Both the position numbers and the translations under genes were made by a program. The notes under the pieces were generated by a model. That model worked only from the letters and a program-made list of their open reading frames with translations, did no database searches and was not told the origin of the DNA. Source: an uncultured Gammaproteobacteria bacterium (GTDB lineage Bacteria > Patescibacteriota > Microgenomatia > UBA12405 > JAHJSD01). Taken from it: DNA of 42,586 nucleotides. Position 1 is the stretch's first letter; the number at the start of each line of letters is the position of its first letter. The stretch lies in assembly GCA_964432015.1 (NCBI GenBank), contig CAYSLZ010000002.1:1-42586 (forward strand), written 5' to 3'. Below are positions 21,341 to 41,926 of the stretch, one piece after another.

Positions 21341-22039
21341 ATGTCTGGGCACTCTAAATGGGAAAATATTAAACGCCAAAAAAATTCTCAGGATCGGGCT
21401 AGAGCAAAAGTTTTCAGCAAATTGTCACGGTTAATCACTAATGCTGTTAAAGAGGGAGGTTCTGTTGATCCTGAGAAGAATGTCCAACTGCGTCAGGCTA
21501 TTGAACGGGCTAAAGAAGAGGATATGCCTAAGGATAATATTGAGCGGGCAATAGATAATGCTTTAAAAAGTCAGGAGGCTTCTGAAGAACTTGTCCTTGA
21601 AGGCTACGGTCCGTTTGGCTTAGCTGTTCTTATGAAAGCGATTACAGATAATAGACAAAGAACTATCCAAGAGATTAAAAACATTTTTGAAAAACACGGG
21701 GGGAATTTGTCTGAACCGGGGGCAGTTAGTTATAAATTTTTTCGGCAGGGTAGGGTAGTGGTTAAAAAGCCTGACCAGGAGTCGATAATTGAGCTTATTG
21801 ATTTTGGAGTTGAAGAAATAGAAGAAAAAGAAGATAAGTTAGTTCTTTATATTAATCCGGAAGATTTTAAAAAGGCTGTTGATCAAATAGGGCGGAATTA
21901 CCAAATTATTTCTTCAGATATAGAGTTAGTATCCAAAGAAAGTTTGAAATTCAGCCAATCGGGAAAGGAAAAAATTAACCAGTTTGTCAGTCTGCTTAAA
22001 GATCATCCTGATATAGAGAAGGTATTTACCAATGACTAA
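21341..22039 (+). CDS. yebC: YebC/PmpR-family transcriptional regulator
   Basis: MSGHSKWENIKRQK and KLSRLITNAVKEGG..DPEKNVQLRQAIERAKEEDMPKDNIERAI. Confidence 0.9.
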   Translation: MSGHSKWENIKRQKNSQDRARAKVFSKLSRLITNAVKEGGSVDPEKNVQLRQAIERAKEEDMPKDNIERAIDNALKSQEASEELVLEGYGPFGLAVLMKAITDNRQRTIQEIKNIFEKHGGNLSEPGAVSYKFFRQGRVVVKKPDQESIIELIDFGVEEIEEKEDKLVLYINPEDFKKAVDQIGRNYQIISSDIELVSKESLKFSQSGKEKINQFVSLLKDHPDIEKVFTND

Positions 22040-22805
22040 ACGCGCTTATTTTCTAATCTCGAGTATAATTTTAACAATAATTTTTGGTTTATTAAATCTT
22101 GTTTCCTTTCAATGGAAATATGCTGGTATTGTTGGGTTTTCAGTTGGGGTAGCTGTTTATCAGGCTATACTTTTTTATTTTATGGTTGATAAAAAAACTA
22201 ACTTGGTAATCAGCGGCGTTTTACCTGCTTTTTTTGGCTTAGGAACAAGTTTATTCAGGTTTTTATTTGCCGTTAACTGGATTTGGCAGTCGATTTTAGT
22301 TTTAGTATTTTTATTTGGTATTTATACTTTGTTTTTAGTAGAAAATGTATTTTTGGTTTCCACTGAGGTTAAAACAGTTCCGCTTTATCGAGCAGCTAGT
22401 ACGGTTGGTTTTTTAATTACACTGATTACTGCTTTTTTTCTTTATGAAGTAATTTTTTCATTTCGTTTACCAGTATGGCAGAACAGCTTGTTAATTTTGG
22501 GAGCAAGTTTGCCTTTACTAAATCATTATTTTTGGTCAATAAGATTAAATCAGCCTTTAAGCTGGAAAAATATAAGGTTATCGCTAGTTTTTGCCTTAAT
22601 AATGGCTGAAATGGCAGCGGCAGTTTCGTTTTGGCCTTTAGAAACAACCAAATCAGCTCTTTATCTTGGCAGTGTCTTTTACGTCTTTTTAGGTTTGGCT
22701 CAAGCATATTGTCAGGAAAAACTATTTAAACAAACTATTCGTGAATTTATATTAGTTGGGTTAGGCACGTTAATGGCTTTGTTTTTAGTGACCAGCTGGC
22801 GTTGA
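22032..22805 (+). CDS. Hypothetical polytopic membrane protein
   Basis: About 8 predicted TM helices, no recognisable motif, overlaps the yebC end. Confidence 0.45.
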   Translation: MTKRAYFLISSIILTIIFGLLNLVSFQWKYAGIVGFSVGVAVYQAILFYFMVDKKTNLVISGVLPAFFGLGTSLFRFLFAVNWIWQSILVLVFLFGIYTLFLVENVFLVSTEVKTVPLYRAASTVGFLITLITAFFLYEVIFSFRLPVWQNSLLILGASLPLLNHYFWSIRLNQPLSWKNIRLSLVFALIMAEMAAAVSFWPLETTKSALYLGSVFYVFLGLAQAYCQEKLFKQTIREFILVGLGTLMALFLVTSWR

Positions 22806-22853
22806 TAAGGCTTAGATATATAGTCGAGTAGAGAAGTGGTCCAAAACTAAAGC

Positions 22854-22925
22854 GTCCTATAATAGTATTTATAAATATCCTATAATACAATATCCTCTTC
22901 GTGAAAATTATAGGACTATTTTCAC
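22854..22925 (+). promoter_or_regulatory. Nested, mutually exclusive inverted repeats containing three TCCTATAAT boxes
   Basis: GTCCTATAAT (22854-63) is the reverse complement of ATTATAGGAC (22907-16). GTGAAAAT (22901-08) pairs with ATTTTCAC (22918-25). A third TCCTATAATA lies at 22878-87. Confidence 0.5.
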
Positions 22926-23224
22926 ATTTAGCAGTCGCAATCCTTAATTGATAATTAAATATAACTACTAAAGTTAATCCGGAGAATACGCAAAAAATAG
23001 CTACTAAATGTGGAAAAGTTCACTTGAGAAGTTAACCCCTCTTCAATCTGTTAGCTTGGTTAAATCAGCTTTTATGAGGTTCTAATCAACAACTGCCAAA
23101 ATATAAACATGGCTGATCAAACAAAAAGTGTTATTTTTGCTTCTCTCGTTGACAGCTTATTGGTGTTTATTAAGAATAAAAAGATTGATAGATAGATGTT
23201 AATTGGGGAAGCTTCGCTTACTGT

Positions 23225-23248
23225 GTCGCACAATGTTTCTTTTGCGAC
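23225..23248. promoter_or_regulatory. Inverted repeat GTCGCA-N12-TGCGAC (candidate protein or recombinase binding site)
   Basis: GTCGCAcaatgtttctttTGCGAC. The left decamer GTCGCACAAT recurs at 23745-23754. Confidence 0.4.
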
Positions 23249-23654
23249 GCGATAAATAGTAGGAGAGTGAAGAGGATTAAAAGTTTAAAGTTTCAGCTAA
23301 AGGCTGATGGGCCTCTGGCCCAAAAATTTAAATATTTATTTTGGATTATTTATTTTTGAATTTTTTGACTTCTTCTAATTTAACTTTTTCGATTTAAATT
23401 TATATTCAACCATTTCCCCACTACTCTTTGATAAAAAATATGCAATAAATAAATTTTGACTGCAGAGCTGATGACCAAAGATACTGCTATATTATTAAAA
23501 ATGCCTTAGAATGCCTCTAACGAGTTTATGCCTCTAGATTGGTAGAATATTAATATTGTTGCAATACACTACTGTTTAATTGTAATTATTTATAAAAATT
23601 ATTGCTGATTACTGTCTATATTTTTTGTGGTTTGCTAATTACAATAAAAACTTT

Positions 23655-23676
23655 AGTCCAGATTAAGTCCAGATTA
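23655..23676 (+). repeat. Tandem 11-mer AGTCCAGATTA x2
   Basis: agtccagatta agtccagatta, perfect copies, about 120 nt upstream of the recombinase start. Confidence 0.85.
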
Positions 23677-23740
23677 CCTCCAGCTAGAAAAACGGTCCGG
23701 ATAAGATGATGGCTGCAAAATTATCGTTGGTGGTTTTTTT
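23676..23740 (+). terminator. Terminator-like long hairpin followed by a T7 run
   Basis: ACCTCCAGC (23676-84) pairs with GTTGGTGGT (23726-34), 8 of 9 positions including one G-U, and is followed by TTTTTTT (23734-40). Confidence 0.3.
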
Positions 23741-23744
23741 CAAC

Positions 23745-23754
23745 GTCGCACAAT
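23745..23754 (+). repeat. Second copy of GTCGCACAAT, abutting a TTGACA hexamer upstream of the recombinase gene
   Basis: caacGTCGCACAATtTTGACA, with TTGACA at 23756-61 and the ATG at 23794. Confidence 0.5.
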
Positions 23755-23793
23755 TTTGACAGAAATAAAAAGATGTGCTAGTTTTAAATTAGA

Positions 23794-24771
23794 ATGGTTA
23801 AATCAAAAAATAAAAAACAAAACAAACTCAGTAAAAATCTTTGGACAATGGTTGATAAGTTTTTAGAAGCTTTGGAAATTGAACGCAACTGTTCTCCATT
23901 AACTATTCGGAATTATCGTCATTATTTAAAAAGGTTTAATAGGTTTTTAAAAAACGATGATAAAGACTACTCCCCTACTCTATCCGATCTTACCCTGGAA
24001 AATATACGGAAATTCCGACTTCATTTAGCCAGAATTAAAACTCGCAAGGGAACTTTTTTAAAAAAGAAAACCCAGGGTTACCACATAATTGCTTTGCGGT
24101 CATTTTTAAGCTGGTTGATTAAAGATAATTATAATGTGGTTGCACCTGATAAGATTGATTTGCCCAAAACACCAGAAAGACAGGTAAAATTTTTAAATGA
24201 GAAACAGCTAAATAAATTTTTAAATCAGCCTCAAATTTCAACTAAAATTGGTTTAAGAGATAAAGCTATTTTGGAAACTTTGTTTTCAACTGGTTTAAGA
24301 GTTAGTGAATTAGTAAGTTTAGATCGGAATGAGATTAATCTAAAAACTCAAGAGGTTGGTGTGGTTGGTAAAGGCCAAAAAGCGCGTGTTGTTTTTCTTT
24401 CTGACCGGGCAGTAAAATGGCTTGATCGCTATTTAGTTTCCCGCGATGACCATTATGACCCGTTGTTTATAAGATATTCTGGTAAAAAAGATCCGTCTAT
24501 GGATGATGAAGAAATGCGGCTTTCAGCCCGGTCGGTTCAAAGACTAGTTGAAAAATATCGTAAAAAAGCAAAAATACCAATCAAGGTGACTCCGCATGTT
24601 TTGCGTCATTCATTTGCTACTGATCTTCTTCGTCAGGGAGCCGATCTTCGGTCTGTTCAGGAACTGCTTGGGCATAAAAACATTTCCACAACTCAAATTT
24701 ATACCCACGTTACCGACCGCCATCTCCACGAAACTCACAAAAAGTACCACTCTGGCAATAAAGAATCCTAA
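23794..24771 (+). CDS. xerC: Tyrosine recombinase, XerC/XerD family
   Basis: N-terminal SAM-like core-binding domain (FLEALEIERNCSPLTIRNYRHYL). Catalytic set GLRVSEL (R), GKGQKAR (K), HVLRHSFAT (HxxR), LGHKNISTTQIYTHV (H, Y). Confidence 0.9.
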   Translation: MVKSKNKKQNKLSKNLWTMVDKFLEALEIERNCSPLTIRNYRHYLKRFNRFLKNDDKDYSPTLSDLTLENIRKFRLHLARIKTRKGTFLKKKTQGYHIIALRSFLSWLIKDNYNVVAPDKIDLPKTPERQVKFLNEKQLNKFLNQPQISTKIGLRDKAILETLFSTGLRVSELVSLDRNEINLKTQEVGVVGKGQKARVVFLSDRAVKWLDRYLVSRDDHYDPLFIRYSGKKDPSMDDEEMRLSARSVQRLVEKYRKKAKIPIKVTPHVLRHSFATDLLRQGADLRSVQELLGHKNISTTQIYTHVTDRHLHETHKKYHSGNKES

Positions 24772-24845: not shown

Positions 24846-25518
24846 ATGAGGAAGAAGAGATCAAAGACACTACAAATACTTGCTGCGGCTGAAGATCTTA
24901 TGCTTAATTTTGGAGACTATTTTAGCCGAGATAGGAGAAAAGGAACTGACTTAGCTGAGTGGTTAAGTATTGGCACGCGGGCGACCACATATTATTTTGT
25001 CAAAAAGGGTGTATTAAACCCGGATTTGACATTTAAGGAAAAACCAAATTCGATTTTAAGATTAATAAAAAAACCATGGGATGGTAAATGGAGATTTGTT
25101 ATTTTTGATATTCCTCAGAAAGAGGTTAATTTCAGAAATATTATTAGACGACGCTTGAAAGAATTGGACTTTAGGCAGTTGCAGCGTTCTGTTTGGTTTT
25201 CACCCTTACCCCTTACGCAAAGTTGTGAAAAAAATGGATAAACGAGTCGATGATTACAATTACTTGACTGTAATAGAAGGTAAGATATATCGTGATGATC
25301 CAAAAAGGATTGTTAGAAATAAATGGGAAATTGATGATTGGAGGCAACGTGTACTAAACTGGAAGAATTTAATTCAAGACAAGAGAAAACTTAGTGAAAT
25401 AAACCAAAAAACCTTTTGGAATTTAGTTTTGGACCATCCAAAGGTTCCTCTGGATCTTCTTCCTAAAAATTGGCCCTTAAAAGATTTAGTGAAACAATTT
25501 GACTTGAGAAAGTTTTAA
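24846..25518 (+). pseudogene. PaaX-like regulator (wHTH + central Cas2-like domain + C-terminal domain) split by a frameshift in an A7 run
   Basis: ORF 24846-25241 ends ...WDGKWRFVIFDIPQKEVNFRNIIRRRLKELDFRQLQRSVWFSP.. (PaaX central Cas2-like signature). ORF 25225-25518 continues in the +1 frame. Removing one A from A7 (25228-25234) fuses them (..SCEKMDKRVDDY..). Confidence 0.55.
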
Positions 25519-25613: not shown

Positions 25614-28244
25614 TTAATTTCCATTATCACGGAGGCAGGTCATGGCAGAAACCTTTTCGGATTTTGTTTTGAAGCGCATTAAAATAACACCTTGAGTGGT
25701 TCTGCCTAAAACGGGAATATTTTTAAGAGGCAGTTTAATAATTTTACCTTTTAATGAAGTTAAAATTACTTTATCCGTATTTTGGTCGACAATTTGAGCT
25801 TCAGCAACTAAGCCGGTTTTTTTATTGATGTTAGCTACTTTTACGCCTACGCCGGCTCTTTTTTGAAGAGGATATTTATAGGCGTTTGTGCGTTTACCCA
25901 GTCCCCTTTCGGTAACTACCAAAAGGTGGCGGAATAATTTCCGCCGTTTATCTTCCGGAACCGGTTTCTTGTCTGGAATGGTATCGAGAGAAATAACATG
26001 GTCTCCCTTTTTAAGTTCAATTCCTTTAACTCCCTGAGCTGTTCTACCCATTGTCCTGACATCTGTTTCTTTAAAGCGGATACATTTGCCTTTTTTAGTA
26101 ATTAAGAAAGCATGTTTCCTACCATTAGTTAATTTCGCATCAACTAATTGATCATTATCCTTTAGACTTATTGCAATAATTCCGGTTTTCCTAATATTTT
26201 CAAAATCTTCAATTTTTGTTCGTTTAACTTGACCTTGGTCAGTGGCTAAAAGTATGTATTTTTCCTCCGGCGTTTTTTTGGCAGAAAGTTTAAGAAACGC
26301 CTGTACTTTTTCGCCTTGTTCAATGTTAATTAAGTTAATTATTGCTTGGCCTTTAGATTTTCTTGAACCCTCCGGTATTTCCCAAACACGTTTTTCATAA
26401 ACTTTACCTTGATCGGTAAAGAAATAGATTATGTCGTGGGTTGTACATGAAAATAAGTTTTTAATTGAATCTTCTTCTTTAGTTGTCATTCCCTGAACGC
26501 CTTTACCACCTCGTCTTTGACTTCGGTAAGTTCCGCGGCCCACCCTTTTGATATAACCAGTTTTAGTAATAGTGACAATAACTTCTTCTTTAGCAATTAA
26601 ATCCTCCTCACTTAACTCACCAACTTTTCGTTTATATATCTTGGTTTTTCTTTTGTCTCCGTATTTTTCTTTTATCTCTTTAAGCTCGTTTTTTATTTCT
26701 TTTAGCATAATTTTTGGCTTGGTGAGAAGCGTTTCTAGTTTTTCCAATGTTTCCTTAATTTCCTCATATTCGGCTTCTATTTTTTGGCGTTCCAAAGCAG
26801 CTAATCTTTTTAACTGCATATCTAAAATTGCTTGAGCCTGAATGTCAGTTAATTCAAATTTGTTCATTAAGTTGGATTTAGCTGTTTCAGTGTCTTTGGA
26901 TTTTTTAATTGTTTCAATTATTTCATCAAGATTATCAAGAGCTATTTTTAGACCTTCTAAAATGTGGGCTCTGAATTTTGCTTCTCTAAATTCATAAAGG
27001 GTTCTTCGTCTGATAATTTCATGTCGATGGCGGATGAAAAGAAGCAGAATTTGGCGTAAATTTAAGGTTTGTGGAACTCCATCAACCAAGGCAACTATGT
27101 TTGCCGGATAGTTTTTTTGAAGATAGGTGTATTTATAAAGCTTGTTAAGAATTGATTTTGGTCGAGCTGTTCGTTTTAATTCAACTACAACTCTAATTCC
27201 ATCCCGGTCGGATTCATCTCGCAAATCTGATATGCCGGTAATCTTTTCATCTTTAGCCAGTTTAGCAATTTTTGCCACTAGTTTAGCCTTGTTGACCTGA
27301 TATGGCAATTCACTGATAATAATGTTGTGTTTTCCCATATTGGCTTCTTTTATTTCTGCTTTACCGCGCATGAGAATTTTACCTTTTCCAGTAGTGTAGG
27401 TTTTATTGATTGATTCTTGGTCAAATATTTCTCCTGATGTTGGGAAATCAGGTCCTTTAATAAATTCTAAAAGATCTGTACTTGATAATTTTGATTCAAA
27501 TTCAAACTGCCAGTCAGCTAATTTTTTAACCTCTTGCATAATTACGTATTCAGCAGTCTTTTTTTTGTTTTCGGTTAGTTTTTTAAATTCAATTTTTTCC
27601 TCATTTTCCTTTTTCTTAAGCTTGCCTTCGTCAATCATGTGAATTATGGCGTTAATTACCTCGGTTAGGTTATGAGGAGGAATTTTTGTTGCCATGCCAA
27701 CAGCAATTCCGTCTCCTCCGTTGATAAGAAGGTTGGGAATTTTTGTTGGTAAAACAACCGGTTCTTTTAAAGTTCTATCAAAATTATCAGTAAAGTCTAC
27801 TGTTTCCTTGTTAATGTCTCGAAGCATTTCTTGGGCAATTTTGGCCATCTTTGCTTCGGTATAACGCATAGCAGCTGGCGGGTCACCGTCAATTGACCCG
27901 AAATTACCTTGTCCGTTAATTAAACAATAACGCATAGCAAAGTCCTGGGCCATATGAACGAGAGCTCCATAGCTTGAACTGTCACCATGAGGATGATATT
28001 TTCCTAAAACTTCTCCAACTATCTTGGCTGATTTGCTGTAGCTGGCACCGCTGGTTAAATGCATTTGGTGCATGGCGTAAAGTATTCTTCTTTGTACCGG
28101 TTTTAGACCGTCACGGACATCAGGTAAAGCTCGTGAAACAATAACACTCATTGCGTAGTCTAAGTACGCTTGTCGCATTTCGTCGGTAATTTTTACTGGT
28201 TTTATTTGATCAGCCTTTGGGGCTATTTTTGTTTTCTTTGCCAT
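25614..28244 (-). CDS. gyrA: DNA gyrase subunit A
   Basis: [29 protein letters not shown] (catalytic Tyr), GPDFPT, and C-terminal beta-pinwheel repeats. Confidence 0.95.
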
Positions 28245-28747
28245 CTTTGTTTACTTTTTTTAATTACTTGATAAGCCTCTTTTTTAGTTAACCATTCGCC
28301 GACTTTAATTTCTTTGTTAAGTTCTAATTTGGCGTAACTCTCCCAGAAATCAACAATCTCGTTTTTAGTTGCTGTGCTTAAATCTTTTAAGCTTTTAAAA
28401 TGATCCATTCTCGGGTCATTTTTGGCAGCGGCAATAATTTTAGTGTCTTTTTCACCAGTGTCATGAAGTTCTAAACCTCCAATAACACGAGACCGAATTA
28501 AACAACCGGGAATAGTTGGTGACGAAACTAAAACCATTATATCTAACGGGTCATTATCCTCTGCTAGTGTGGAGGGAATGTATCCGTATTCAGTTGGATA
28601 AAAAACCGAGCCCGGTAAAACTCGATCTAAAATAAGCTGGTTTAATTGGTGGTGAAACTCATATTTATTAGTCCCCCCTTTAGGAATTTCCACTCGACAG
28701 TAGACTGTTTTCGGTGAATTTGGTCCACAAGGTATTTTTTTATTCAT
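28223..28747 (-). CDS. ppa: Inorganic pyrophosphatase, family I
   Basis: [47 protein letters not shown] overlap with the gyrB stop and a 22-nt overlap with the gyrA start. Confidence 0.9.
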
Positions 28748-30708
28748 ATATCCAAGGTCGCCATTTTAGCGTGTGTTTGAATAAAGTGCCTTCTTGGCGG
28801 TACTTTTTTACCCATTAAAATTGAAAATGTTTCATCGGCTTTTTCAGCGTCATCAATGTTGACTAGTTTTAATATCCGGTTTTCCGGATTCATAGTTGTT
28901 TCCCATAACTGGTTCGGGTTCATTTCTCCAAGCCCTTTGTAACGTTGAATATTGATGTTTTTATAATCCTTACTGTATTTAGCGACTAGTTTGTCTTTTT
29001 CCTTTTCAGAATAAGCATATTGCTCATTCTTGCCTGCTTTTACTTTGAATAAAGGCGGTTGGGCAATATATAAATTGCCCTGTTTAATTATCTGCGGCAG
29101 ATATCTAAAGAAAAAAGTCAGCAGTAAAGTGGCAATATGGGCGCCGTCAACATCAGCGTCAGTCATAATAATAACTCGGTGGTAACGAAGTTGCTCCATA
29201 TCAATTTCCTCACCAATACCAACGCCTAAAGCGACAATCAGGTCTTTGAGCTCCGGAAATTCAACGATTCTATCCAAAGCTGCTTTTTCAGTATTTAAAA
29301 CTTTACCTCTTAAAGGTAAAATAGCTTGAAATTTGCGGTCTCTGCCTTGCTTAGCTGAACCTCCGGCAGAGTCTCCCTCAACAATAAATAACTCTGATTT
29401 TTTTGGTTCTTTAGTTTGGCAATCAGCTAGTTTTCCCGGCAAACCTAATGAGTCAAAGACACCTTTTCTTGATATAGCGTCGCGGGCTGCTTTAGCCGCT
29501 TTTCTGGCTCTGACAGTCAACATGACTTTTTCCAGTATGGCATTAGTGTCAGAAGGATGTTCCTCAAAAAAAGTTTCCAGCCCTTCCCTGGCAATTTTAG
29601 CCACTAAGGGGCGAATTTCACTGTTACCCAGTTTGCCCTTAGTTTGCCCTTCAAACTGAAGGTCTTTGGATGGCATTTTTACAGAAATTATTGCTGTTAG
29701 GCCTTCGCGGGTGTCCCGGCCGCGAATAGTACCGTTTTTAATTTTTTTCAACAAGTCATTTTTTTGAGCATATTTTTTAATTGACCTAGTTAAGGCGCTT
29801 TTAAAACCAGATTCGTGGGTTCCGCCTTCTTGTGTATTTATAACGTTAACGTAGGAAATAATGTTTGTTCTATTGCTGTCAGTGTATTGAATAGCAATTT
29901 CAACCTCTTTATCATCTTCTTGTCCATTAATATATATTGGTTGATGAAAAGTATCCTTACCTTGGTTTATTTGATCAAGCAGTGAACGGATACCGCCTTC
30001 AAAATAAAAATGATATTCTTTGTCTTTAATTTTATTATTAAAATGAAAGAATAAGCCGGAGATTAAAAAAGCTCGATCGCGGAGAGAATTTTTAATTGTT
30101 TTGGGGTTAAATTCGGTTGTTTCAGTAAAAATTTTGGGGTCAGGTGTGAAATTTACAATTGTTCCGGTTTTTCCTTTTAAAAATTCTTTTGATTCCGTAA
30201 ACTTAGTTTCTTTTATTTCCTTTACCTTTGTTTCTGGATTACCTCTTTTATATTTTTGGTAATAAATTTTATCGTCACGGTGAACTTCTACTTCCATAGA
30301 CGTGGATAAAGCATTAACTACACTTGACCCGACACCGTGCAGTCCGCCCGAAATTTTATAAGCCTCACCTTCAAATTTTCCTCCGGCATGAAGTTTGGTC
30401 ATTACAATTTCTAAAGTGGATTTTTTATATTTCGGGTGTTCATCAACGGGAATTCCCCGGCCGTCGTCAACAACAGTTACTGAACCGTTTTGGTTTAAAC
30501 TGACCCAGACGTTTTCAGCCGCTCCAGCCAAAGCTTCATCAATGGCATTATCAACAATTTCATACACACAGTGGTGCAGACCGGTTTCATTGGTTGAGCC
30601 TATATACATTGCCGGCCGTTTACGAACCGGAGCTAGTCCTTCTAGAACGACTATTTGTTCTCCGGTATATTTATCAATAGTATCCAGTTTTTTCTTCTTT
30701 TTTGCCAT
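28744..30708 (-). CDS. gyrB: DNA gyrase subunit B
   Basis: GLEPVRKRPAMYIGST, LHHCVYEIVDNAIDE, GGLHGVGSSVVNALS, EGDSAGGSAKQGRDR, PLRGKVLN and IMTDADVDGAHI. Confidence 0.95.
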   Translation of the reverse strand: MAKKKKKLDTIDKYTGEQIVVLEGLAPVRKRPAMYIGSTNETGLHHCVYEIVDNAIDEALAGAAENVWVSLNQNGSVTVVDDGRGIPVDEHPKYKKSTLEIVMTKLHAGGKFEGEAYKISGGLHGVGSSVVNALSTSMEVEVHRDDKIYYQKYKRGNPETKVKEIKETKFTESKEFLKGKTGTIVNFTPDPKIFTETTEFNPKTIKNSLRDRAFLISGLFFHFNNKIKDKEYHFYFEGGIRSLLDQINQGKDTFHQPIYINGQEDDKEVEIAIQYTDSNRTNIISYVNVINTQEGGTHESGFKSALTRSIKKYAQKNDLLKKIKNGTIRGRDTREGLTAIISVKMPSKDLQFEGQTKGKLGNSEIRPLVAKIAREGLETFFEEHPSDTNAILEKVMLTVRARKAAKAARDAISRKGVFDSLGLPGKLADCQTKEPKKSELFIVEGDSAGGSAKQGRDRKFQAILPLRGKVLNTEKAALDRIVEFPELKDLIVALGVGIGEEIDMEQLRYHRVIIMTDADVDGAHIATLLLTFFFRYLPQIIKQGNLYIAQPPLFKVKAGKNEQYAYSEKEKDKLVAKYSKDYKNINIQRYKGLGEMNPNQLWETTMNPENRILKLVNIDDAEKADETFSILMGKKVPPRRHFIQTHAKMATLDI

Positions 30709-30729
30709 TTTAATCAGCTTTTCGGGAGC

Positions 30730-30755
30730 AAAAAAAAATTCTGCTTAGCAGAATT
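30730..30755 (-). terminator. Intrinsic-terminator-like hairpin inside the gyrB leader
   Basis: Minus sense reads AAATTCTGC-TAA-GCAGAATTT followed by a T run, ending 22 nt upstream of the gyrB ATG. Confidence 0.5.
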
Positions 30756-30799
30756 TCCTGCAGTATAAAAAAGCAGGTCAGCTCATTTGCACTAAGTAC

Positions 30800-30828
30800 A
30801 TTATAGTCTATTTATATACGGTATTCAA
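30800..30828 (-). promoter_or_regulatory. Near-consensus sigma70 promoter upstream of gyrB
   Basis: Minus sense reads TTGAAT (30828-30823), a 17-nt spacer, then TATAAT (30805-30800). Confidence 0.6.
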
Positions 30829-30845
30829 GTTATTACTTTATCCGA

Positions 30846-31640
30846 TTAATCGCATATTTTAGGCGGGTTATTAAAAGCGGAGCAAAGGGCAGTGATTAGA
30901 TATTCAGAAGAAGCAATTTGATTATTTTGAAAGTAGCTGTTGTTGATTTTTACTATTATTTTACTGCCTCCTTGTTGAGAATTAATCGGCAGTTGACTGT
31001 CGTTGATAAAAATTTGCGGAGTTTGACGAATATTTTTATTTTCTAAAAATTTTATTTCATTTTCCAAAATTTCAATACTTTGAGTACTAAAACAGTCTTG
31101 TATTTGATTTGTCGGCAAATTTACCTTTTTAGCTTGTTCTTGCCAACAATGGTCAACGTTTTCTAATGAGCAGTTTTCTTCCACATTATTAACAAATTCC
31201 CACCAGTCTAGTGGATTATTGGTTAATCTCCAAGCGCAAATTTCCCGAATATTTTGATTTAGTTGTCGTTTACCTTTTGGTGAACAGTAATATTTATTGT
31301 TTTTGGCGGCAATACATTGATTTTCTGTTTTGGGGCCGTTTTTTGTAGTATAAAAATAATAATGGGGCTGCCAATTTACTTTTTGGTTAAAAAATTGGAC
31401 CGCTTTTTGTAAATTTGTTCTTAATAATTTATCTTTATTTCCAAAGCTTTCTTGAAACATTACTATGTTTGGTGTATTTGTTTGTGAGGGTTGAAAGAGG
31501 ATGTTTTTAGCTCGGGAGTTTTTAGTTTCCGGCGGGCATTGGGTTTCTAAATTTACTTTTTTACGGATGGAGCCGGCTAAAAAGGCAGATATAATCAAAA
31601 GTATAAAAACAGGCCAAGGAAGCTTTATATTTTTAGTCAT
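30846..31640 (-). CDS. Hypothetical Cys-rich exported or membrane-anchored protein
   Basis: N-terminal TM helix (PWPVFILLIISAFLAGS). Several conserved-looking Cys residues. A weak DsbA-like C-terminal pattern but no CxxC. Confidence 0.35.
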   Translation of the reverse strand: MTKNIKLPWPVFILLIISAFLAGSIRKKVNLETQCPPETKNSRAKNILFQPSQTNTPNIVMFQESFGNKDKLLRTNLQKAVQFFNQKVNWQPHYYFYTTKNGPKTENQCIAAKNNKYYCSPKGKRQLNQNIREICAWRLTNNPLDWWEFVNNVEENCSLENVDHCWQEQAKKVNLPTNQIQDCFSTQSIEILENEIKFLENKNIRQTPQIFINDSQLPINSQQGGSKIIVKINNSYFQNNQIASSEYLITALCSAFNNPPKICD

Positions 31641-31827
31641 TTTTTTCTATGTTTATTGCTGAAACAGGGCAGTTGTCAATAGTAGATTTGATTTCTTTAG
31701 TAATTTCCTCGGGCTGATTTTTTACTTGAGCTTTTCCTTTTTTATAGTCAATCGAAAAAATATTTGGGTCTAACGTGGCACACAAGCCGCAGCCAATGCA
31801 TTTTTCTTCGTCAATTTTTATTTTCAT
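31633..31827 (-). CDS. Small single-cluster ferredoxin
   Basis: 64 aa. CIGCGLC ... CP(VSAI) cluster-binding pattern. Confidence 0.75.
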   Translation of the reverse strand: MKIKIDEEKCIGCGLCATLDPNIFSIDYKKGKAQVKNQPEEITKEIKSTIDNCPVSAINIEKND

Positions 31828-32137
31828 TTTTGAGTATTAAGCGTAAATTTAAAAAAACAATGATCGACTTGCCGAGTATACCACTTGTTGAAGTCAGTAT
31901 AAATATAGTTAGGGGTAAAAGGATGATTGGTAAGAGTTGCCTGATTTCTTTTTTAGGAAAAACCCAGTCAACTTCCATAATTAAATAACCGACAACTGCC
32001 CCGGAGATTAATAAAAAATAATTCGTCCACTGAGTATCCTGCCAAATTAAAATTATTTCCCAGATGATTAAGACAACCCCACCGTAAAGTATCGTTTCCG
32101 GCAAATTCTTAATTTTCGATTTAATATTTTCAATCAC
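31811..32137 (-). CDS. Hypothetical small membrane protein
   Basis: Three hydrophobic helices. GTG start at 32137; the start is uncertain. Confidence 0.35.
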   Translation of the reverse strand: MIENIKSKIKNLPETILYGGVVLIIWEIILIWQDTQWTNYFLLISGAVVGYLIMEVDWVFPKKEIRQLLPIILLPLTIFILTSTSGILGKSIIVFLNLRLILKNENKN

Positions 32138-32183
32138 TATTCGCTGTTCGCTATTAACTATTAACTATTAACTATTAACTAGG
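32137..32183. repeat. Heptamer tandem array (6.5 units), CTATTCG CTGTTCG (CTATTAA)x4 CTAGG
   Basis: Read directly from the sequence. In minus sense the units are TTAATAG. It spans from the last codons and stop of tyrS to the GTG of the next gene. Confidence 0.9.
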
Positions 32184-33304
32184 CCTTTCATGAGCCTTAA
32201 TCCTTCTTTCGCTGTTCCTGACTGAAAATGGCTCCGAGCTGGTTTTAACTTTTCAATCAGCCAGTCGGATATTCCATTTTTTAAATCCAGCGGATGAAGA
32301 TTTCCGATTTTATAATCTTCTTTTAATTTATTTATATTTTTGTATTCTATGTTACCGCCGTGTTTTTCGGCTCTTTCAATTTTTAAGCCTTTGTCCACTT
32401 TTTCTTCGCCCCAGAAAACTAACATTTCTACCCAATTAATAATTGGATTAAATTTAATTTCTTTTGGCGGACAGTAAGCATCGTGGATTTTTTGTTTAAT
32501 TATTTTTGGTGAATCATGAATAAAAATTGCCGATTTAGGTTTAGATTTACTCATTTTTAGTTCTTCCGAAGAATCGTTCTTTGACTTTGGTCCCTCTAGG
32601 CCGGCAATTGTATTTTGATGAACGGCCACCGGTGAAATTATATTTCCCTGTTTATCTTTAAGGGGATTAATAGTTATTTTGGAGGCAACGTCACGGGCAT
32701 TGGCATGGGCCTTGCGTTGGTCAATTCCGGCATGGACCAAATTAGCTTGAAGAGTAAAAATATCGGCTACTTGCAGTGGTGGGTAAAAAAGAGTTGCCAT
32801 ATCGACGCTTTTTCCCTCTTTTTTGCCCATAATTGAAATTGACCTTAAATTTCGAGCAAGCGTGATATGTTTGCCGACTTCCATAAACGTTTCCCAGTGG
32901 ATTAGATTATCTTTGTACAAATTTTTTCCGATTACAAATTTTAAGCTGCCTTTTTTAACTTCTTTGTCAGTATTTACGTTAAAGCATTTCAGTGAGGCAA
33001 TTAGCCCTTGTTTAAAATAAGAGTTAGTTGCTTTTCTGATGTTTTCCCAGTTACCGCCAAGTTTGTTATTTAAGTAAGAATGAAAATCAGCCAATAAAAT
33101 AGTGCATTTAACGCCGGCTTCTAGAAAGTCGGCAATTTTGCCCATACTCATTAAGCCGGTTCCCAGATGAACCATACCGGAAATTTCGAAACCGATGTAG
33201 TGGTTTAACGGGGTTTTGGACTTAATTAACTTCTTTAAATCTTCTTCCGTCATTATTTCTTGGCAGTTTCTGGTGATTAAATCAATTTGCTTATTAATAT
33301 CCAT
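32168..33304 (-). CDS. tyrS: Tyrosine--tRNA ligase, archaeal/eukaryal type
   Basis: Collinear with M. jannaschii-type TyrRS as recalled: YIGFEISGMVHLGT, ILLADFHSYLN, FYPPLQVADI, KMSKSK, HDAYCPP, FNPI, LHPLDLKN. No bacterial S4-like C-terminal domain. Confidence 0.9.
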   Translation of the reverse strand: MDINKQIDLITRNCQEIMTEEDLKKLIKSKTPLNHYIGFEISGMVHLGTGLMSMGKIADFLEAGVKCTILLADFHSYLNNKLGGNWENIRKATNSYFKQGLIASLKCFNVNTDKEVKKGSLKFVIGKNLYKDNLIHWETFMEVGKHITLARNLRSISIMGKKEGKSVDMATLFYPPLQVADIFTLQANLVHAGIDQRKAHANARDVASKITINPLKDKQGNIISPVAVHQNTIAGLEGPKSKNDSSEELKMSKSKPKSAIFIHDSPKIIKQKIHDAYCPPKEIKFNPIINWVEMLVFWGEEKVDKGLKIERAEKHGGNIEYKNINKLKEDYKIGNLHPLDLKNGISDWLIEKLKPARSHFQSGTAKEGLRLMKGLVNS

Positions 33305-33343
33305 TATTTTTATTTTACCACTCCCCTACCCTATTTTAAAATG

Positions 33344-33374
33344 TCGAAAAACGCAGGGTAAACCCTGCTATTAC
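33344..33374 (-). terminator. Copy 4 of the post-stop hairpin family, with a covarying stem and a U-tract (intrinsic terminator)
   Basis: Minus sense reads GTAATAGCAGGGTTTACCCTGCGTTTTTCG. Flanks match copies 1-3, and the stem changes from GCAGACT/AGTCTGC to GCAGGGT/ACCCTGC. Confidence 0.65.
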
Positions 33375-33431
33375 AAAGGTTGGGGGTGGGGTTCGCTTTT
33401 GTACTAGTACGCTTTAGCGTGCGTATCAATC

Positions 33432-34385
33432 TTATTCGGCTTTATCTTCAATTAAGTCAGTGATAAGTTTGTTTAATCTAACGGCGGCGACGCCGACTGC
33501 CTGGTCGGCTCCACCGTAATACACGTAGAGTGTACCGTTTATGACAACTGCTCCGCAGGGATAGACCACATTATTGACCTCTCCTTCCAGTTCAAATTGC
33601 ATTCTTGGCTCAAGCAAGGGATATTTTGACCGGGCAATTACTTGAGTTGGGTTATCAAGGTCAAGGAGCATTGCCCCTACCCGATAATGCCGGTCTTTAT
33701 TGGCAATTCCGTGGTACAAAAGCAGCCAGCCGGCTTCTGTTTTTATTGGCGGGGCGGCAATACCGATTTTTCGGTCATCCCAACTGTTAGCTCCGGTTTT
33801 AAACCAAAGGCTACCTTTAATCCATTTTTTTTCTTTTTTAAACTCCAAGTCGTCAACAAAGTCTAACCAAATACCCGGATAAATGCGGTGAAAAATTCCG
33901 TATTTACCGTCCTTCATATTGGGAACAATACAAGAGTTTTTGTCATCAATTCCGGGAGGCGAGATTAATTTTGGTTTAGCCCATTTCCATCTGCGGTTTA
34001 AAAAATCATCAATTTTTATTGATGACATAGCGATTCTGGTTGGGCCGACCCCATCATAAGCTGTGTAGCAAATATAAAGTCGATCGCCAATTTGGGTTAT
34101 CCGCGGGTCTTCACAACCAGAATATGCACCTTGTTTTTTCTTTTTTTCTTCTTTAATTCTCGGAACATAAATTGGCCGTGGGTATCTCTCTGATATTGTA
34201 AATCCATCCTCACTAATCGCGTAGCCTAAAGTAGAAGTATTGTTTTTTGCTGTTGCCCGATAAAGAATATGAACTTTATTGTCCAAATATATGGCGGCTG
34301 GATTAAAGGTTAGTTTCGCCTCCCACTCGTGTTCTGGAATCGGTGTAATTATCGGGTTTCTGACGTACCTTTTTAGTCTAATCAT
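33432..34385 (-). CDS. GH130-family glycoside phosphorylase/hydrolase (DUF377-type beta-propeller)
   Basis: NPIITP..HEWEAKLTFNPAAI, VHILYRA, SGCEDPRIT, LYICYTAYDG, IGIAAPPIKT..GWLLLYHG, YYGGAD. Confidence 0.8.
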   Translation of the reverse strand: MIRLKRYVRNPIITPIPEHEWEAKLTFNPAAIYLDNKVHILYRATAKNNTSTLGYAISEDGFTISERYPRPIYVPRIKEEKKKKQGAYSGCEDPRITQIGDRLYICYTAYDGVGPTRIAMSSIKIDDFLNRRWKWAKPKLISPPGIDDKNSCIVPNMKDGKYGIFHRIYPGIWLDFVDDLEFKKEKKWIKGSLWFKTGANSWDDRKIGIAAPPIKTEAGWLLLYHGIANKDRHYRVGAMLLDLDNPTQVIARSKYPLLEPRMQFELEGEVNNVVYPCGAVVINGTLYVYYGGADQAVGVAAVRLNKLITDLIEDKAE

Positions 34386-35346: not shown

Positions 35347-35350
35347 TGTT

Positions 35351-37204: not shown

Positions 37205-37257
37205 TAGATACAGATTAGCATATTTTGAATTTGATTTGCAAGGAAGAGTTTTTTTTG

Positions 37258-37340
37258 TCCAGGGGGTAGGATTCGAACCTACGCAGGGAAAACCCGACGG
37301 TTTTACAGACCGTTCCATTTGACCACTCTGGCACCCCTGG
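37258..37340 (-). tRNA. tRNA-Tyr (anticodon GTA), long variable arm, C1-G72, no encoded CCA
   Basis: The reverse complement is CCAGGGG-TG-CCA-GAGTGGTCAAA-TGG-A-ACGGT-CTGTAAA-ACCGT-CGGGTTTTCCCTGC-GTAGG-TTCGAAT-CCTAC-CCCCTGG-A. All stems pair. Confidence 0.9.
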
Positions 37341-37369
37341 TGTTAGACCAAGTTTGACTTGGTATGTCT

Positions 37370-37398
37370 ATTTTATAATGAAGCTGGCCTTGTTGCAA
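37370..37398 (-). promoter_or_regulatory. Putative promoter for tRNA-Tyr and the GH130 operon
   Basis: Minus sense reads TTGCAA (37398-37393), a 17-nt spacer, TAAAAT (37375-37370), then hairpin ACCAAGT-CAA-ACTTGGT (37363-37347) before the tRNA. Confidence 0.4.
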
Positions 37399-37435
37399 AT
37401 AGCTGACACCGTTGAAAAATATCCTAACATCATTT

Positions 37436-37972: not shown

Positions 37973-37993
37973 AGTTAAAACACACCTTAATTT

Positions 37994-38999: not shown

Positions 39000-39002
39000 A
39001 AG

Positions 39003-39073: not shown

Positions 39074-39095
39074 GGTAATTAATTTTATCATAATT

Positions 39096-39119: not shown

Positions 39120-39132
39120 AGGGGGTTGGAAA

Positions 39133-39510: not shown

Positions 39511-39515
39511 AGGTT

Positions 39516-40837: not shown

Positions 40838-40839
40838 TT

Positions 40840-41916: not shown

Positions 41917-41926
41917 TAGTTTAATT

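What the first reader, a model, noticed from the sequence alone, without database searches (positions are those of the whole stretch)
22806..23793. 990-bp ORF-free, AT-rich, repeat- and hairpin-dense gap directly upstream of a tyrosine recombinase
Seen: elsewhere in this window intergenic spacers are about 0-130 nt, but this stretch has no ORF of 60 aa or more on either strand. It contains nested inverted repeats (22854-22925), a GTCGCA-N12-TGCGAC palindrome (23225-48), and a GGGCC-tct-GGCCC hairpin (23309-21). It also holds three ATGCCT boxes (23501, 23511, 23528), a 10-bp inverted repeat AATTGTAATTA/TAATTACAAT (23577-87 / 23636-45), a tandem 11-mer (23655-76), and a terminator-like hairpin with a T7 run (23676-23740). 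I could not match it to tmRNA, RNase P, SRP or 6S signatures. Inference: either one or more novel structured ncRNAs, possibly functionally tied to the adjacent recombinase, or a recombination/att region, or a fully decayed gene remnant. This is the least explained sequence in the window.
Basis: partly seen in the sequence, partly recalled or inferred. Interest (0 to 1): 0.65.

Follow-up and report, generated by a model that had tools for sequence, protein, structure and literature searches.

The report
Chromosomal Xer recombination (dif-like) site region
The long gene-free gap is not an RNA gene or a dead gene; it most likely holds the 28-bp DNA site cut and rejoined by the neighbouring Xer recombinase, its promoter control site and conserved protein-binding boxes, and the same site occurs across candidate-phyla-radiation bacteria and is used by their phages.

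Summary
The 988-bp ORF-free gap is real and is kept in 14 syntenic relatives. It is made of short invariant DNA blocks set in filler that varies by insertions and deletions.

The key block is a 28-bp 11-6-11 inverted repeat, GTGTCGCACAA-TGTTTC-TTTTGCGACGC (23223-23250). Its arms are invariant and its central 6 bp vary, which is the geometry of a tyrosine-recombinase core site. A lone copy of the arm (23743-23753) abuts the -35 hexamer of the xer promoter. Arm-like 9-mers are enriched upstream of xer in 23 of 77 diverse CPR loci (P about 2e-14).

The core occurs once per contig in at least 120 metagenome contigs and at least 120 viral contigs. Inovirus-like prophages without an integrase lie exactly at it, with a hybrid second junction and a matching empty site.

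No Rfam hit, covariation or gene remnant was found. GC3 skew does not switch at the gap, so it is neither terminus nor origin by skew. An oriented DnaA box and other boxes accompany the core and remain unexplained.

Verdict: a CPR dif-like/Xer control region, a new variant of a known kind.

The parts
23223..23250 (.). 28-bp dif-like core recombination site. Left arm GTGTCGCACAA (23223-23233), central region TGTTTC (23234-23239), right arm TTTTGCGACGC (23240-23250).
   Evidence: The 9-bp arm cores are invariant or near-invariant (0-2 changes) and the central 6 bp vary in 14 synteny-anchored relatives. There is one full site in the window. It folds better than shuffles (z -2.9). The extended 11-6-11 consensus ATGTCGCACAA-TATATC-TTTTGCGACAT comes from 123 unique sites. 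Prophage insertion occurs exactly at the homologous site in other CPR lineages.
23743..23753 (+). Isolated copy of the left arm (ACGTCGCACAA), 2 bp upstream of the xer -35 hexamer. Candidate Xer operator for autoregulation.
   Evidence: ACGTCG(C/T)ACAAT-TTGACA is kept in 8 of 8 close relatives. Arm-like 9-mers in the 200 bp before xer: 26 observed against 3.6 expected, in 23 of 77 diverse CPR loci, P about 2e-14.
23756..23784 (+). Promoter-like element of xer: TTGACA (23756-61), 17-bp spacer, TGcTAGTTT extended -10-like element (23776-84). The ATG is at 23794, so the leader would be very short.
   Evidence: TTGACA is invariant and TGnTAnnnT-like is kept in most of the 8 relatives. The -10 is weak (3 of 6 matches) and the consensus scan did not call it. 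This part is inference.
23794..24771 (+). Xer-family tyrosine recombinase gene (325 aa).
   Evidence: Pfam Phage_integrase 5e-44 plus an N-terminal SAM-like domain. NCBIfam: XerC 258 bits and XerD 254 bits, both below their cutoffs; XerA_Arch 235 bits, above its cutoff of 220. Closest solved structure is E. coli XerD, 4e-44. Residues at the positions expected for the catalytic R..K..H-x-x-R..H..Y set are invariant in 18 homologues (R169, K193, H268, R271, H294, Y303); their catalytic role is my assignment by position.
23009..23017 (-). Canonical DnaA box TTTTCCACA, read TGTGGAAAA on the + strand, 216 bp before the core.
   Evidence: It is the only TTWTCCACA in the 42.6-kb window. It is conserved as TGTGGA(A/T)AA in 21 of 25 family loci and always has the same orientation relative to the core. 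Density is 9-55 times higher within 650 bp of the core than outside in the metagenome sets, and about 4 times in the viral set.
22855..22925 (.). Block A. TCCTATAAT twice as direct repeats (22855-63, 22878-86) plus an inverted copy (22907-15), interleaved with GTGAAAAT (22901-08) and ATTTTCAC (22918-25). The last two resemble weak DnaA boxes.
   Evidence: All three CCTATAAT copies in the window lie here. The block is conserved in 8 close relatives. In more distant relatives the TTTTCAC boxes are direct repeats 21-23 bp apart, with a CCTATAA box in either orientation between them. There are 0 compensatory pairs.
22826..22839 (+). Purine-rich box GAGTAGAGAAGTGG, just after the DUF5656 stop codon.
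   Evidence: GTAGrGrAGAGGGG-type box present in all 8 close relatives and in L007, L008, L010 and L014. Function unknown.
23262..23276 (+). Purine-rich box GGAGAGTGAAGAGGA, about 40 bp after the start of the core arm (23225).
   Evidence: A G-rich box at about +35 to +60 is seen in most of 22 family loci. Pairing with the C-rich box is not consistent.
23416..23427 (+). Pyrimidine-rich box CCCCACTACTCT (block D).
   Evidence: Conserved in close relatives. CCCCTCTCCCCC-type boxes are present at about +190 in more distant family loci and in Saccharibacteria-like loci.
23497..23542 (+). Block E: AAAAATGCCTTAGAATGCCTCTAACGAGTTTATGCCTCTAGATTGG.
   Evidence: Conserved in 7 of 8 close relatives. TTAGAAT stays 278-328 bp from the core even where xer is more than 1 kb further away (L007, L157, L191). 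No conserved structure was found.
23560..23735 (.). Non-conserved AT-rich filler. It holds the 10-14-bp inverted repeat, the tandem 11-mer and the supposed terminator.
   Evidence: Largely deleted or unalignable in L001, L003, L329, L331 and L333. The 23676-23742 fold has z +0.45.

Best explanation
The gap is the non-coding dif/xer control region of a candidate-phyla-radiation (Microgenomates-type) chromosome.

**Proposed mechanism**
1. The adjacent Xer recombinase binds as a pair to the two nearly identical 11-bp arms of the 28-bp core at 23223-23250.
2. Two such cores synapse, and strands are cut and exchanged at the edges of the 6-bp central region. This resolves chromosome dimers. The same site serves as the attachment site for integrase-less mobile elements.
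3. A lone arm at 23743-23753 next to the -35 hexamer lets Xer repress its own promoter.
4. The other conserved boxes are protein-binding accessory or architectural DNA around the core. These are the oriented DnaA box, the TTTTCAC and CCTATAAT boxes, the purine- and pyrimidine-rich boxes and block E. Their factors are not identified.
5. The rest of the gap, about 23560-23735, is filler.

**Shown:** geometry, conservation pattern, linkage to xer, arm enrichment at xer promoters, and insertion of prophages at the homologous site in related lineages.

**Inferred:** Xer binding and cleavage at this core, autorepression, the dimer-resolution role, and any role of the flanking boxes.
For: **Conservation and synteny**
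- The arrangement DnaB...YebC-DUF5656-[790-1070 bp with no called gene]-xer-gyrA(-) is kept in all close relatives.
- Relatives were retrieved through the Xer protein, not through the site. In them the 9-bp arm cores are invariant or near-invariant (0-2 changes) while the central 6 bp vary (TGTTTC, TATTTC, TATCTC, TGATAC, TAATAC, TATTAC, TGTATA/TATACA). Mean column identity of the surrounding DNA is only 37%.

**Link to xer**
- Arm-like 9-mers are enriched 7-fold (25-fold for exact copies) just upstream of xer in 23 of 77 loci from many CPR lineages, P about 2e-14.
- The arm abuts an invariant TTGACA in 8 of 8 close relatives.

**Distribution of the core**
- An exact-pattern scan found one copy per contig in at least 120 metagenome contigs and at least 120 viral contigs.
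- Positions not fixed by the search pattern extend the palindrome to 11-6-11.

**Use by mobile elements**
- L283 and L318 carry a 5.4-kb inovirus-like prophage (Zot, G2P-type Rep, no integrase). It is bounded by the intact core on one side.
- On the other side is a hybrid junction that keeps the left arm and central region but has a different right arm.
- L174 is the matching empty site.
- Only 3 of 120 viral loci have a tyrosine recombinase within 5 kb of the site.
- A 2.4-kb tandem (probably circular) element also carries the core.

**Hairpin function unlikely**
- 47% of cores have G to A in the right arm without compensation in the left.
Against: - **No terminus signal.** Third-codon-position GC skew on the + strand is positive for genes of both orientations on both sides (+0.33, +0.225, +0.22). 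The same holds in relatives, and 0 of 27 site loci show a +/- switch. The site is therefore not at a skew-defined terminus, where bacterial dif normally lies.
- **Sequence match to known dif is not informative.** Identity to E. coli or B. subtilis dif (13-17 of 28) is within chance for this AT-rich window; 57 other 28-mers reach 16.
- **Copy number untested.** No closed genome could be examined.
- **Ascertainment.** The metagenome and viral sets were retrieved with a pattern that fixes the arms, so arm invariance in those sets is by construction.
- **Not universal next to xer.** Most site-bearing contigs have no xer nearby. Some relatives (L013, L015, L016) have no core within 4 kb of xer.
- **Most of the conserved gap is unexplained.** About 700 bp of conserved flanking boxes, including a DnaA box, are not accounted for by a bare dif site.
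- **No biochemical data.**
Confidence: 0.75

Rival explanations
1. A DnaA-binding replication-control locus. This could be oriC itself, or a datA/DARS-like DnaA-box cluster, with the palindrome as an unrelated or auxiliary element.
For: - The only canonical DnaA box in the window lies here.
- It is conserved and oriented in 21 of 25 family loci and enriched 9-55 times near the core in the metagenome sets (about 4 times in the viral set).
- Two further TTTTCAC(A/G) boxes fit the relaxed consensus at 8 of 9 positions and are spaced 21-23 bp apart.
- An AT-rich stretch lies at about 23322-23414.
- dnaB, gyrA and gyrB are neighbours.
Against: - There is only one strict box per locus. TTWTNCACA and one-mismatch counts in the window are at chance.
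- There is no GC3-skew switch of either polarity here or in relatives.
- No dnaA or dnaN lies in the window, and no DnaA signature was found in about 200 loci.
- Genes converge on the region rather than diverge from it.
- This reading does not explain the arm at the xer promoter or the prophage junctions.
Confidence: 0.1
2. The palindrome and the promoter arm are operators of an ordinary transcription factor, not Xer, that regulates xer. No recombination occurs at them in this genome.
For: An inverted repeat plus a half-site at a promoter is also typical of repressor operators. The full site is not at a terminus.
Against: - The full site lies more than 500 bp from the xer promoter. In most lineages it is far from any xer, in convergent intergenic spaces without promoters.
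- Prophages and a small tandem (probably circular) element use it as a junction.
- A variable central 6 bp between invariant arms is the signature of a crossover region.
Confidence: 0.07
3. One or more structured non-coding RNAs are encoded in the gap.
For: Block A and the core fold better than shuffles (z -2.5 and -2.9). Several blocks are strongly conserved.
Against: - No Rfam match at gathering thresholds; the best hit in the permissive scan has E 0.11.
- Whole-gap z-scores are -1.08 and -0.44.
- Alignment folding found 0 compensatory pairs in block A and in blocks D-E.
- The CCTATAA box flips orientation between relatives.
- Spacers between blocks are rich in insertions and deletions.
- G-rich and C-rich box pairing is inconsistent (mean z -0.33).
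Confidence: 0.05
4. A fully decayed gene, or remnants of elements once integrated at the site.
For: The segment between block E and xer varies among relatives and hosts insertions: a GIY-YIG-like ORF in L010, two ORFs in L007, and DUF4230 in L012.
Against: - Six-frame Pfam gives nothing below E 0.05.
- tblastn with 17,044 ORFs from related loci gives only short hits on the conserved non-coding blocks.
- No match in phage records.
- The ORF-free state and block order are conserved over Xer identities of 55-88%.
Confidence: 0.03

Closest known systems
Archaeal XerA/dif
   Same: A single recombinase acts on a nearly palindromic 11-6-11 site. The site need not lie opposite the origin, and xerA and dif form one module in some species (PMC5357621, PMC2958812). 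The window's protein passes the NCBIfam XerA_Arch cutoff.
   Different: The host is a bacterium. The arm sequence differs. The protein scores higher against the XerC and XerD models, though below their cutoffs, so membership in XerA proper is not established. FtsK independence is not tested.
XerS/difSL (streptococci, lactococci) and XerH/difH (Helicobacter, Campylobacter)
   Same: One recombinase gene is genetically linked to its own chromosomal site, forming a module (PMC1914069, PMC5357621).
   Different: - difSL is 31 bp with an 11-bp central region, and it lies at the terminus.
- The window's protein scores 128 bits against the XerS model, whose cutoff is 267. It matches the XerH structure only at 1e-14.
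- Here the site is 544 bp from xer, it is not at a skew switch, and in most other CPR lineages it is unlinked to xer.
Bacterial XerCD/dif with IMEX (CTXphi, VGJphi, TLCphi, gonococcal island)
   Same: The core is 28 bp, 11-6-11. Integrase-less filamentous phages integrate at it and leave a hybrid site that keeps one arm and the central region but has a divergent other arm (PMC5357621).
   Different: Canonical dif has two different arms for two paralogous recombinases, lies at the terminus and depends on FtsK. Here the arms are near-identical, one xer gene is seen, and there is no skew switch.
Plasmid Xer sites cer and psi with accessory sequences
   Same: A core site is accompanied by 150-200 bp of conserved flanking DNA bound by accessory proteins that impose resolution selectivity (PMC5357621). 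Here conserved boxes extend from about -400 to +320 around the core.
   Different: This site is chromosomal, the boxes lie on both sides, the accessory proteins are unknown (one box is a DnaA box), and no function has been shown.
DnaA-box clusters outside oriC (datA and DARS in E. coli, DnaA-box clusters in B. subtilis; from my own knowledge)
   Same: A conserved canonical DnaA box plus weaker boxes lies in a non-coding region away from the skew-defined origin.
   Different: There is only one strict box per locus, and it is tied in distance and orientation to a recombination core. That association is not described for those loci.

Membership tests
dif-type Xer core site | Two inverted arms of about 11 bp around a 6-8 bp central region | tested here: met
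   GTGTCGCACAA-TGTTTC-TTTTGCGACGC at 23223-23250. The consensus of 123 sites extends the palindrome to 11-6-11 at positions not fixed by the search pattern.
dif-type Xer core site | Arms conserved across taxa while the crossover (central) region is free to differ | tested here: met
   In 14 relatives retrieved through the Xer protein the 9-bp arm cores carry 0-2 changes and the central region takes at least 7 different forms.
dif-type Xer core site | One copy per chromosome | tested here: inconclusive
   There is one full site in the 42.6-kb window and one per contig in more than 240 contigs, except the tandem L123. No closed genome could be read.
dif-type Xer core site | Located at the replication terminus (GC-skew switch) | tested here: not met
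   + strand GC3 skew is positive on both sides for genes of both orientations. The same holds in relatives, and 0 of 27 site loci are +/-.
dif-type Xer core site | Site of actual strand exchange (recombination junctions) | tested here: met
   Met for homologous sites in other CPR lineages, not for this genome. L283 and L318 show a prophage bounded by the core and a hybrid junction, and L174 is the matching empty site.
dif-type Xer core site | Bound and cleaved by the cognate Xer recombinase | not testable with these tools
   The only support is indirect: arm copies at xer promoters in 23 of 77 CPR loci.
dif-type Xer core site | Sequence similarity to characterised dif sites | tested here: inconclusive
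   13-17 of 28 matches to E. coli and B. subtilis dif (sequences from memory). 57 and 80 other 28-mers in the window reach 16.
XerC/XerD two-recombinase system | Recombinase is an equivalog of XerC or XerD, with two different arms | tested here: not met
   XerC scores 258 bits against a cutoff of 335, and XerD 254 against 330. The arms differ at one core position. One xer gene is seen in the window.
Single-recombinase Xer modules (XerA, XerS, XerH) | Recombinase belongs to XerA, XerS or XerH | tested here: inconclusive
   XerA_Arch scores 235 bits, above its cutoff of 220, but lower than the XerC and XerD scores. XerS scores 128 against a cutoff of 267. The XerH structure matches at 1e-14.
Single-recombinase Xer modules (XerA, XerS, XerH) | Recombinase gene adjacent to its site | tested here: met
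   The core ends 544 bp before the xer ATG, and this is kept in 14 relatives. It is not so in most other CPR lineages.
oriC | Cluster of several DnaA boxes with an unwinding element | tested here: inconclusive
   There is one strict box plus two 8-of-9 boxes. Window-wide counts are at chance. An AT-rich stretch is present, but unwinding was not tested.
oriC | GC-skew switch from negative to positive, usually next to dnaA/dnaN | tested here: not met
   There is no switch. No dnaA or dnaN lies in the window or in any locus.
Structured ncRNA (any Rfam family or a new one) | Covariance-model match, or helices supported by compensatory changes | tested here: not met
   Rfam gives nothing in the gap at gathering thresholds, and only chance-level matches (E 0.11 or more) in the permissive scan. 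There are 0 compensatory pairs in blocks A and D-E. The alignments are shallow (7-8 sequences).
cer/psi-type site with accessory sequences | Conserved flanking DNA bound by accessory proteins and needed for selectivity | tested here: inconclusive
   Conserved, position-locked boxes flank the core. The binding proteins and any requirement are unknown.

The most novel reading that the evidence does not exclude
CPR bacteria use one Xer recombinase on a phylum-wide, near-palindromic dif that lies away from the replication terminus. Its activity, or its use by integrating phages, is controlled by flanking accessory DNA rather than by FtsK at the terminus. That accessory DNA includes a DnaA box held at a fixed orientation 135-390 bp from the core, so DnaA or replication status would be an accessory factor of Xer recombination.

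A still more radical version is also not formally excluded by the lack of any skew switch: origin-like and dif functions might coincide at one locus.
Probability: 0.12. Interest if true: 0.8.

Novelty: new variant of a known kind. Interest (0 to 1): 0.6.

Why it matters
- **A testable site for CPR biology.** If correct, this gives candidate-phyla-radiation bacteria a concrete, searchable chromosome recombination site, ATGTCGCACAA-N6-TTTTGCGACAT, and assigns a substrate to their ubiquitous Xer-like gene. These bacteria are a large, mostly uncultured part of bacterial diversity.
- **A way to find their mobile elements.** It shows that integrase-less filamentous prophages, many tailed-phage contigs and at least one small probably circular element carry or occupy this site. 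That offers a handle for finding CPR mobile elements and linking phages to CPR hosts in metagenomes.
- **An open mechanistic question.** The site lies off the skew-defined terminus and travels with an oriented DnaA box. This raises the question of how dimer resolution is made directional in these small genomes.
- **A practical annotation rule.** Long 'empty' gaps next to xer in these genomes should be annotated as recombination and control regions, not as RNA genes or pseudogenes.

Tried and rejected
- **Rfam.** Neither the gathering-threshold scan nor the permissive scan found anything credible in the gap. ARAGORN found no tmRNA or tRNA there.
- **Whole-gap folding.** Both strands were folded; the energies are not special.
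- **Alignment folding.** Block A and blocks D-E showed no covariation.
- **Long-range pairing.** Pairing of the G-rich and C-rich boxes was tested and is inconsistent.
- **Terminus hypothesis.** I first favoured it because genes converge at 25.5 kb. I rejected it for this locus after GC3 skew showed the + strand is G-rich for genes of both orientations on both sides. Relatives and other site loci show the same.
- **oriC hypothesis.** I raised it because of the DnaA box. Skew, the lack of further strict boxes and the absence of dnaA do not support it.
- **Similarity to known dif.** Similarity to E. coli and B. subtilis dif is not above chance, so I did not use it as evidence.
- **Gene-remnant searches.** All were negative:
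  - Pfam on small ORFs
  - Pfam on six frames
  - tblastn with 17,044 ORFs from related loci
  - blastn against phage records
- **Promoter and terminator scan.** There was no enrichment, and no terminator at the T7 run.
- **parS, matS and LexA-box resemblance.** I considered these from memory for the TTTTCAC/GTGAAAA boxes and the palindrome. I dropped them because the half-site order and spacing do not fit.
- **Literature.** Three full-text searches found no paper on a dif site in Patescibacteria, Saccharibacteria or CPR.
Full report
**Setting.** The window is a low-GC (36.6%) chromosome fragment of a candidate-phyla-radiation (Patescibacteria, Microgenomates-type) bacterium. The finding lies between a DUF5656 membrane-protein gene (22032-22805, +) and a tyrosine recombinase gene (23794-24771, +). 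Further right are a split PaaX_M-like gene and then gyrA, ppa and gyrB on the minus strand. The nearest named homologues of the recombinase come from Shapirobacteria, Woesebacteria, Daviesbacteria and Roizmanbacteria MAGs.

**Checking the observation.**
- The gap has no ORF of 60 aa or more on either strand.
- At 988 nt it is 3.6 times longer than the next spacer.
- The gap is only slightly more AT-rich than other intergenic DNA (30.8% against 32.7% GC).
- As a whole it does not fold better than shuffled sequence (z -1.08 and -0.44).
- The supposed terminator before the T7 run has z +0.45 and the terminator scan did not call it.
- Taken one at a time, block A (22850-22930, z -2.5) and the GTCGCA palindrome (z -2.9) clearly exceed shuffles, and the 23570-23655 inverted repeat does so more weakly (z -2.0).

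**Conservation in relatives.** I retrieved relatives through the recombinase protein, not through the DNA.
- All close relatives (Xer identity 71-88%) keep the order DnaB...pseudouridine synthase-YebC-DUF5656-[790-1070 bp without a called gene]-xer-gyrA(-).
- The PaaX-like gene is absent from five of them and is in either orientation in two. It is a variable insertion, not part of the unit.
- Alignments of the gaps show short invariant blocks in DNA that otherwise diverges freely and is full of insertions and deletions. Mean column identity is 37-63%.
- The conserved blocks are:
  - a purine-rich box (22826-39)
  - block A (22855-22925)
  - TGTGGAAAAC (23009-19)
  - the palindrome with GCGATAA (23223-58)
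  - a second purine-rich box (23262-76)
  - CCCCACTACTCT (23416-27)
  - block E with the three ATGCCT boxes (23497-23542)
  - ACGTCGCACAAT-TTGACA at the xer promoter (23743-61)
- The GGGCC hairpin, the 23575/23636 inverted repeat, the tandem 11-mer and the stretch up to the T7 run are missing or unalignable in close relatives.

**The core site.**
- The palindrome reads GTGTCGCACAA-TGTTTC-TTTTGCGACGC, that is 11-6-11.
- In 14 synteny-anchored relatives down to 55% Xer identity the 9-bp arm cores carry 0-2 changes, including a C/T variant in L329 and L012. The central six bases vary: TGTTTC, TATTTC, TATCTC, TGATAC, TAATAC, TATTAC, and TGTATA/TATACA in L011 depending on the strand read.
- Invariant arms around a variable crossover region is the pattern expected of a tyrosine-recombinase core, not of an RNA helix.
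- There is one full site in the window.

**Link to xer.**
- A lone copy of the arm sits 2 bp from an invariant TTGACA. This is followed 17 bp later by a TGnTAnnnT-like element and then, within about 10 bp, by the xer ATG. All 8 close relatives keep this arrangement.
- Across 77 xer loci from many CPR lineages (Saccharimonadales, Kaiserbacteria, Nomurabacteria, Doudnabacteria and others), 9-mers within one mismatch of GTCGCACAA occur 26 times in the 200 bp before xer.
- Only 3.6 are expected from the rest of the same loci. They occur in 23 loci, with Poisson P about 2e-14.
- The arm sequence is thus tied to xer genes well beyond this family. This is what one expects if Xer recognises it and regulates itself. 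Binding itself is inferred, not shown.

**Distribution of the core.**
- Only about a quarter of those contigs have DUF5656 or xer nearby. The others lie in other conserved CPR contexts, next to genes I read by eye as an M23-type peptidase, FtsQ-like/MurG, GltX and ribosomal proteins L27 and L9 (only MurG was confirmed by Pfam, in L283).
- 11 of 14 non-family loci place the core in a convergent intergenic space.
- The arms in this set are fixed by the search pattern. The positions that were free extend the palindrome to ATGTCGCACAA-TATATC-TTTTGCGACAT.
- 47% of sites carry G to A in the right arm with no compensating change in the left. This argues against a hairpin function.
- Identity to E. 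coli or B. subtilis dif (13-17 of 28) is not above chance in this AT-rich window, and I do not count it as evidence.

**Evidence that strand exchange happens at this core.**
- Only 3 of 120 viral loci encode a tyrosine recombinase within 5 kb of the site.
- Many are tailed-phage contigs with a large terminase (PHROG match) and proteins I read as portal proteins. About 23 are 5.4-kb inovirus-like elements with a Zot-like ATPase and a G2P-type rolling-circle Rep.
- In L283 and L318 such an element lies between host genes (DUF3048 on one side, FtsQ-like and MurG on the other).
  - One boundary is the intact core.
  - 5413 or 5432 bp away is a hybrid, GTCGCACAATATATCTTTT-ttgtg. It keeps the left arm and the central region but has a different right arm.
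- L174 carries the same left and right host flanks joined at a single intact core, so it is the empty site.
- This is the arrangement described for integrative elements that exploit Xer, such as TLCphi, VGJphi and the gonococcal island (PMC5357621).
- L123 is a 2398-bp unit assembled 3.1 times in tandem, with one core and one HTH protein per unit. It is probably a small circle that carries the site.

**The recombinase.**
- It has the N-terminal SAM-like and catalytic domains, and invariant residues at the positions expected for the catalytic set.
- Its best NCBIfam scores are to XerC and XerD, both below their cutoffs. It passes only the archaeal XerA cutoff. XerS and XerH are distant.
- Together with the near-identical arms, this fits a single-recombinase system, but membership in XerA proper is not established.

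**Not a terminus and not an origin, by skew.**
- Genes converge at 25.5 kb, which first suggested a terminus.
- Third-codon-position GC skew says otherwise. Plus-strand genes have coding-strand skew +0.33. Minus-strand genes have -0.22, whether they lie left (three genes) or right (fifteen genes) of the gap. The + strand is therefore G-rich everywhere.
- Relatives show the same. Among 27 loci with at least 2.5 kb on both sides of a core, none shows the +/- pattern of a terminus and only two show -/+.
- On the standard reading of skew, one replication fork passes through the locus. This is a real difference from bacterial dif. It resembles what is reported for some archaeal XerA systems (PMC2958812, PMC5357621).

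**Unexplained companions of the core.**
- The single canonical DnaA box of the window (TTTTCCACA, 23009-17, minus strand) is conserved in 21 of 25 family loci.
- In other lineages a strict box lies 135-390 bp from the core, always with its TTWT end towards the core: 25 of 75 other metagenome loci and 32 of 100 viral loci.
- Density is 0.26-0.67 per kb within 650 bp of the core, against 0.012-0.07 per kb outside.
- In the family it is preceded by two TTTTCAC(A/G) boxes 21-23 bp apart, with a CCTATAA box in either orientation between them. All three CCTATAAT copies of the window are here.
- Block E keeps its distance of 278-328 bp to the core even where xer is more than 1 kb further away.
- These features look like protein-binding accessory DNA, loosely comparable to the accessory sequences of cer and psi. 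I could not assign factors or functions.
- An origin is not supported: one strict box only, relaxed counts at chance, no skew switch, and no dnaA in the window or in about 200 loci.

**RNA and pseudogene readings.**
- Rfam found nothing in the gap at gathering thresholds; its best hit in the permissive scan has E 0.11.
- Alignment folding of block A (8 sequences) and blocks D-E (7 sequences) gave weak consensus structures with no compensatory change.
- Pairing between the G-rich and C-rich boxes is inconsistent (mean z -0.33; +1.06 in the window).
- Small ORFs and all six frames have no Pfam match better than E 0.05.
- tblastn with 17,044 ORFs from all fetched loci hit only the conserved non-coding blocks.
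- Phage records have no similar DNA.

**Conclusion.**
- The gap is best read as the dif-like core and xer control region of this chromosome, with conserved accessory boxes and some filler (confidence about 0.75).
- The kind of system, Xer/dif, is known. New here are the CPR-wide core sequence, its off-terminus position, its oriented DnaA-box companion, and its use by integrase-less phages of CPR bacteria.
- Three full-text searches found no description of these.
- All functional statements about Xer binding, cleavage and autorepression in this genome are inference from sequence.

Noticed in passing
window 24846-25518: The PaaX_M-like gene downstream of xer is split by a frameshift. The 131-aa part is 80% identical to residues 1-129 of the intact 220-aa gene in L333, and the 97-aa part is 56% identical to residues 127-220. 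The gene is absent from five close relatives and lies in either orientation in two others.
   Followed up: partly
window 25614-42586: All 15 minus-strand genes right of the gap, including gyrA, ppa, gyrB, a class I tRNA synthetase and three GH130 genes, lie on the lagging strand by skew: 14 of them have negative coding-strand GC3 skew and pooled they give -0.22. That is 17 kb of head-on genes, and the arrangement is conserved in relatives.
   Followed up: partly
L283 2195-7631 (also L318 and about 20 further IMG/VR loci): A 5.4-kb inovirus-like prophage (Zot PF05707, G2P-type Rep PF23343, DUF2726 nuclease-like protein, no integrase) is integrated at the dif-like core between host FtsQ-like/MurG and DUF3048 genes. 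It has a hybrid second junction, and L174 is the matching empty site.
   Followed up: yes
L123 1-7490: A 2398-bp unit is repeated 3.1 times at 97% identity. Each unit has one dif-like core and a 169-aa ORF with a weak, sub-threshold HTH_17 match. It is probably a small circular element that relies on host Xer.
   Followed up: partly
IMG/VR loci L207-L326: At least 120 viral contigs, including many tailed-phage contigs with a large terminase and portal-like proteins, carry one copy of the core. Only 3 have a tyrosine recombinase within 5 kb. Whether the core is their attachment site was not examined.
   Followed up: partly
L010 3400-3900: A 97-aa ORF that looks GIY-YIG-like by eye, flanked by GTCATTGCGAG-type inverted repeats, is inserted between block E and xer in a Woesebacteria genome. 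It looks like a small mobile insertion.
   Followed up: no
L007-L009, L011, L014 (record titles): The GTDB records closest to the window are titled 'uncultured Gammaproteobacteria' or 'Pseudomonadales'. They nevertheless carry the same DUF5656-gap-xer-gyrA synteny as Woesebacteria-type CPR genomes, so the titles look like mislabelled taxonomy.
   Followed up: no
PDB 9i5v chain 14: A 401-residue chain labelled 'ribosome-associated translation inhibitor RaiA' aligns with the whole Xer protein (residues 20-324, E 2.8e-28). It may be a mislabelled chain.
   Followed up: no
window 23794 and the 8 relatives: The xer ATG lies only about 10 bp after the putative -10 element in all relatives. The mRNA may therefore be leaderless or nearly so.
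   Followed up: no
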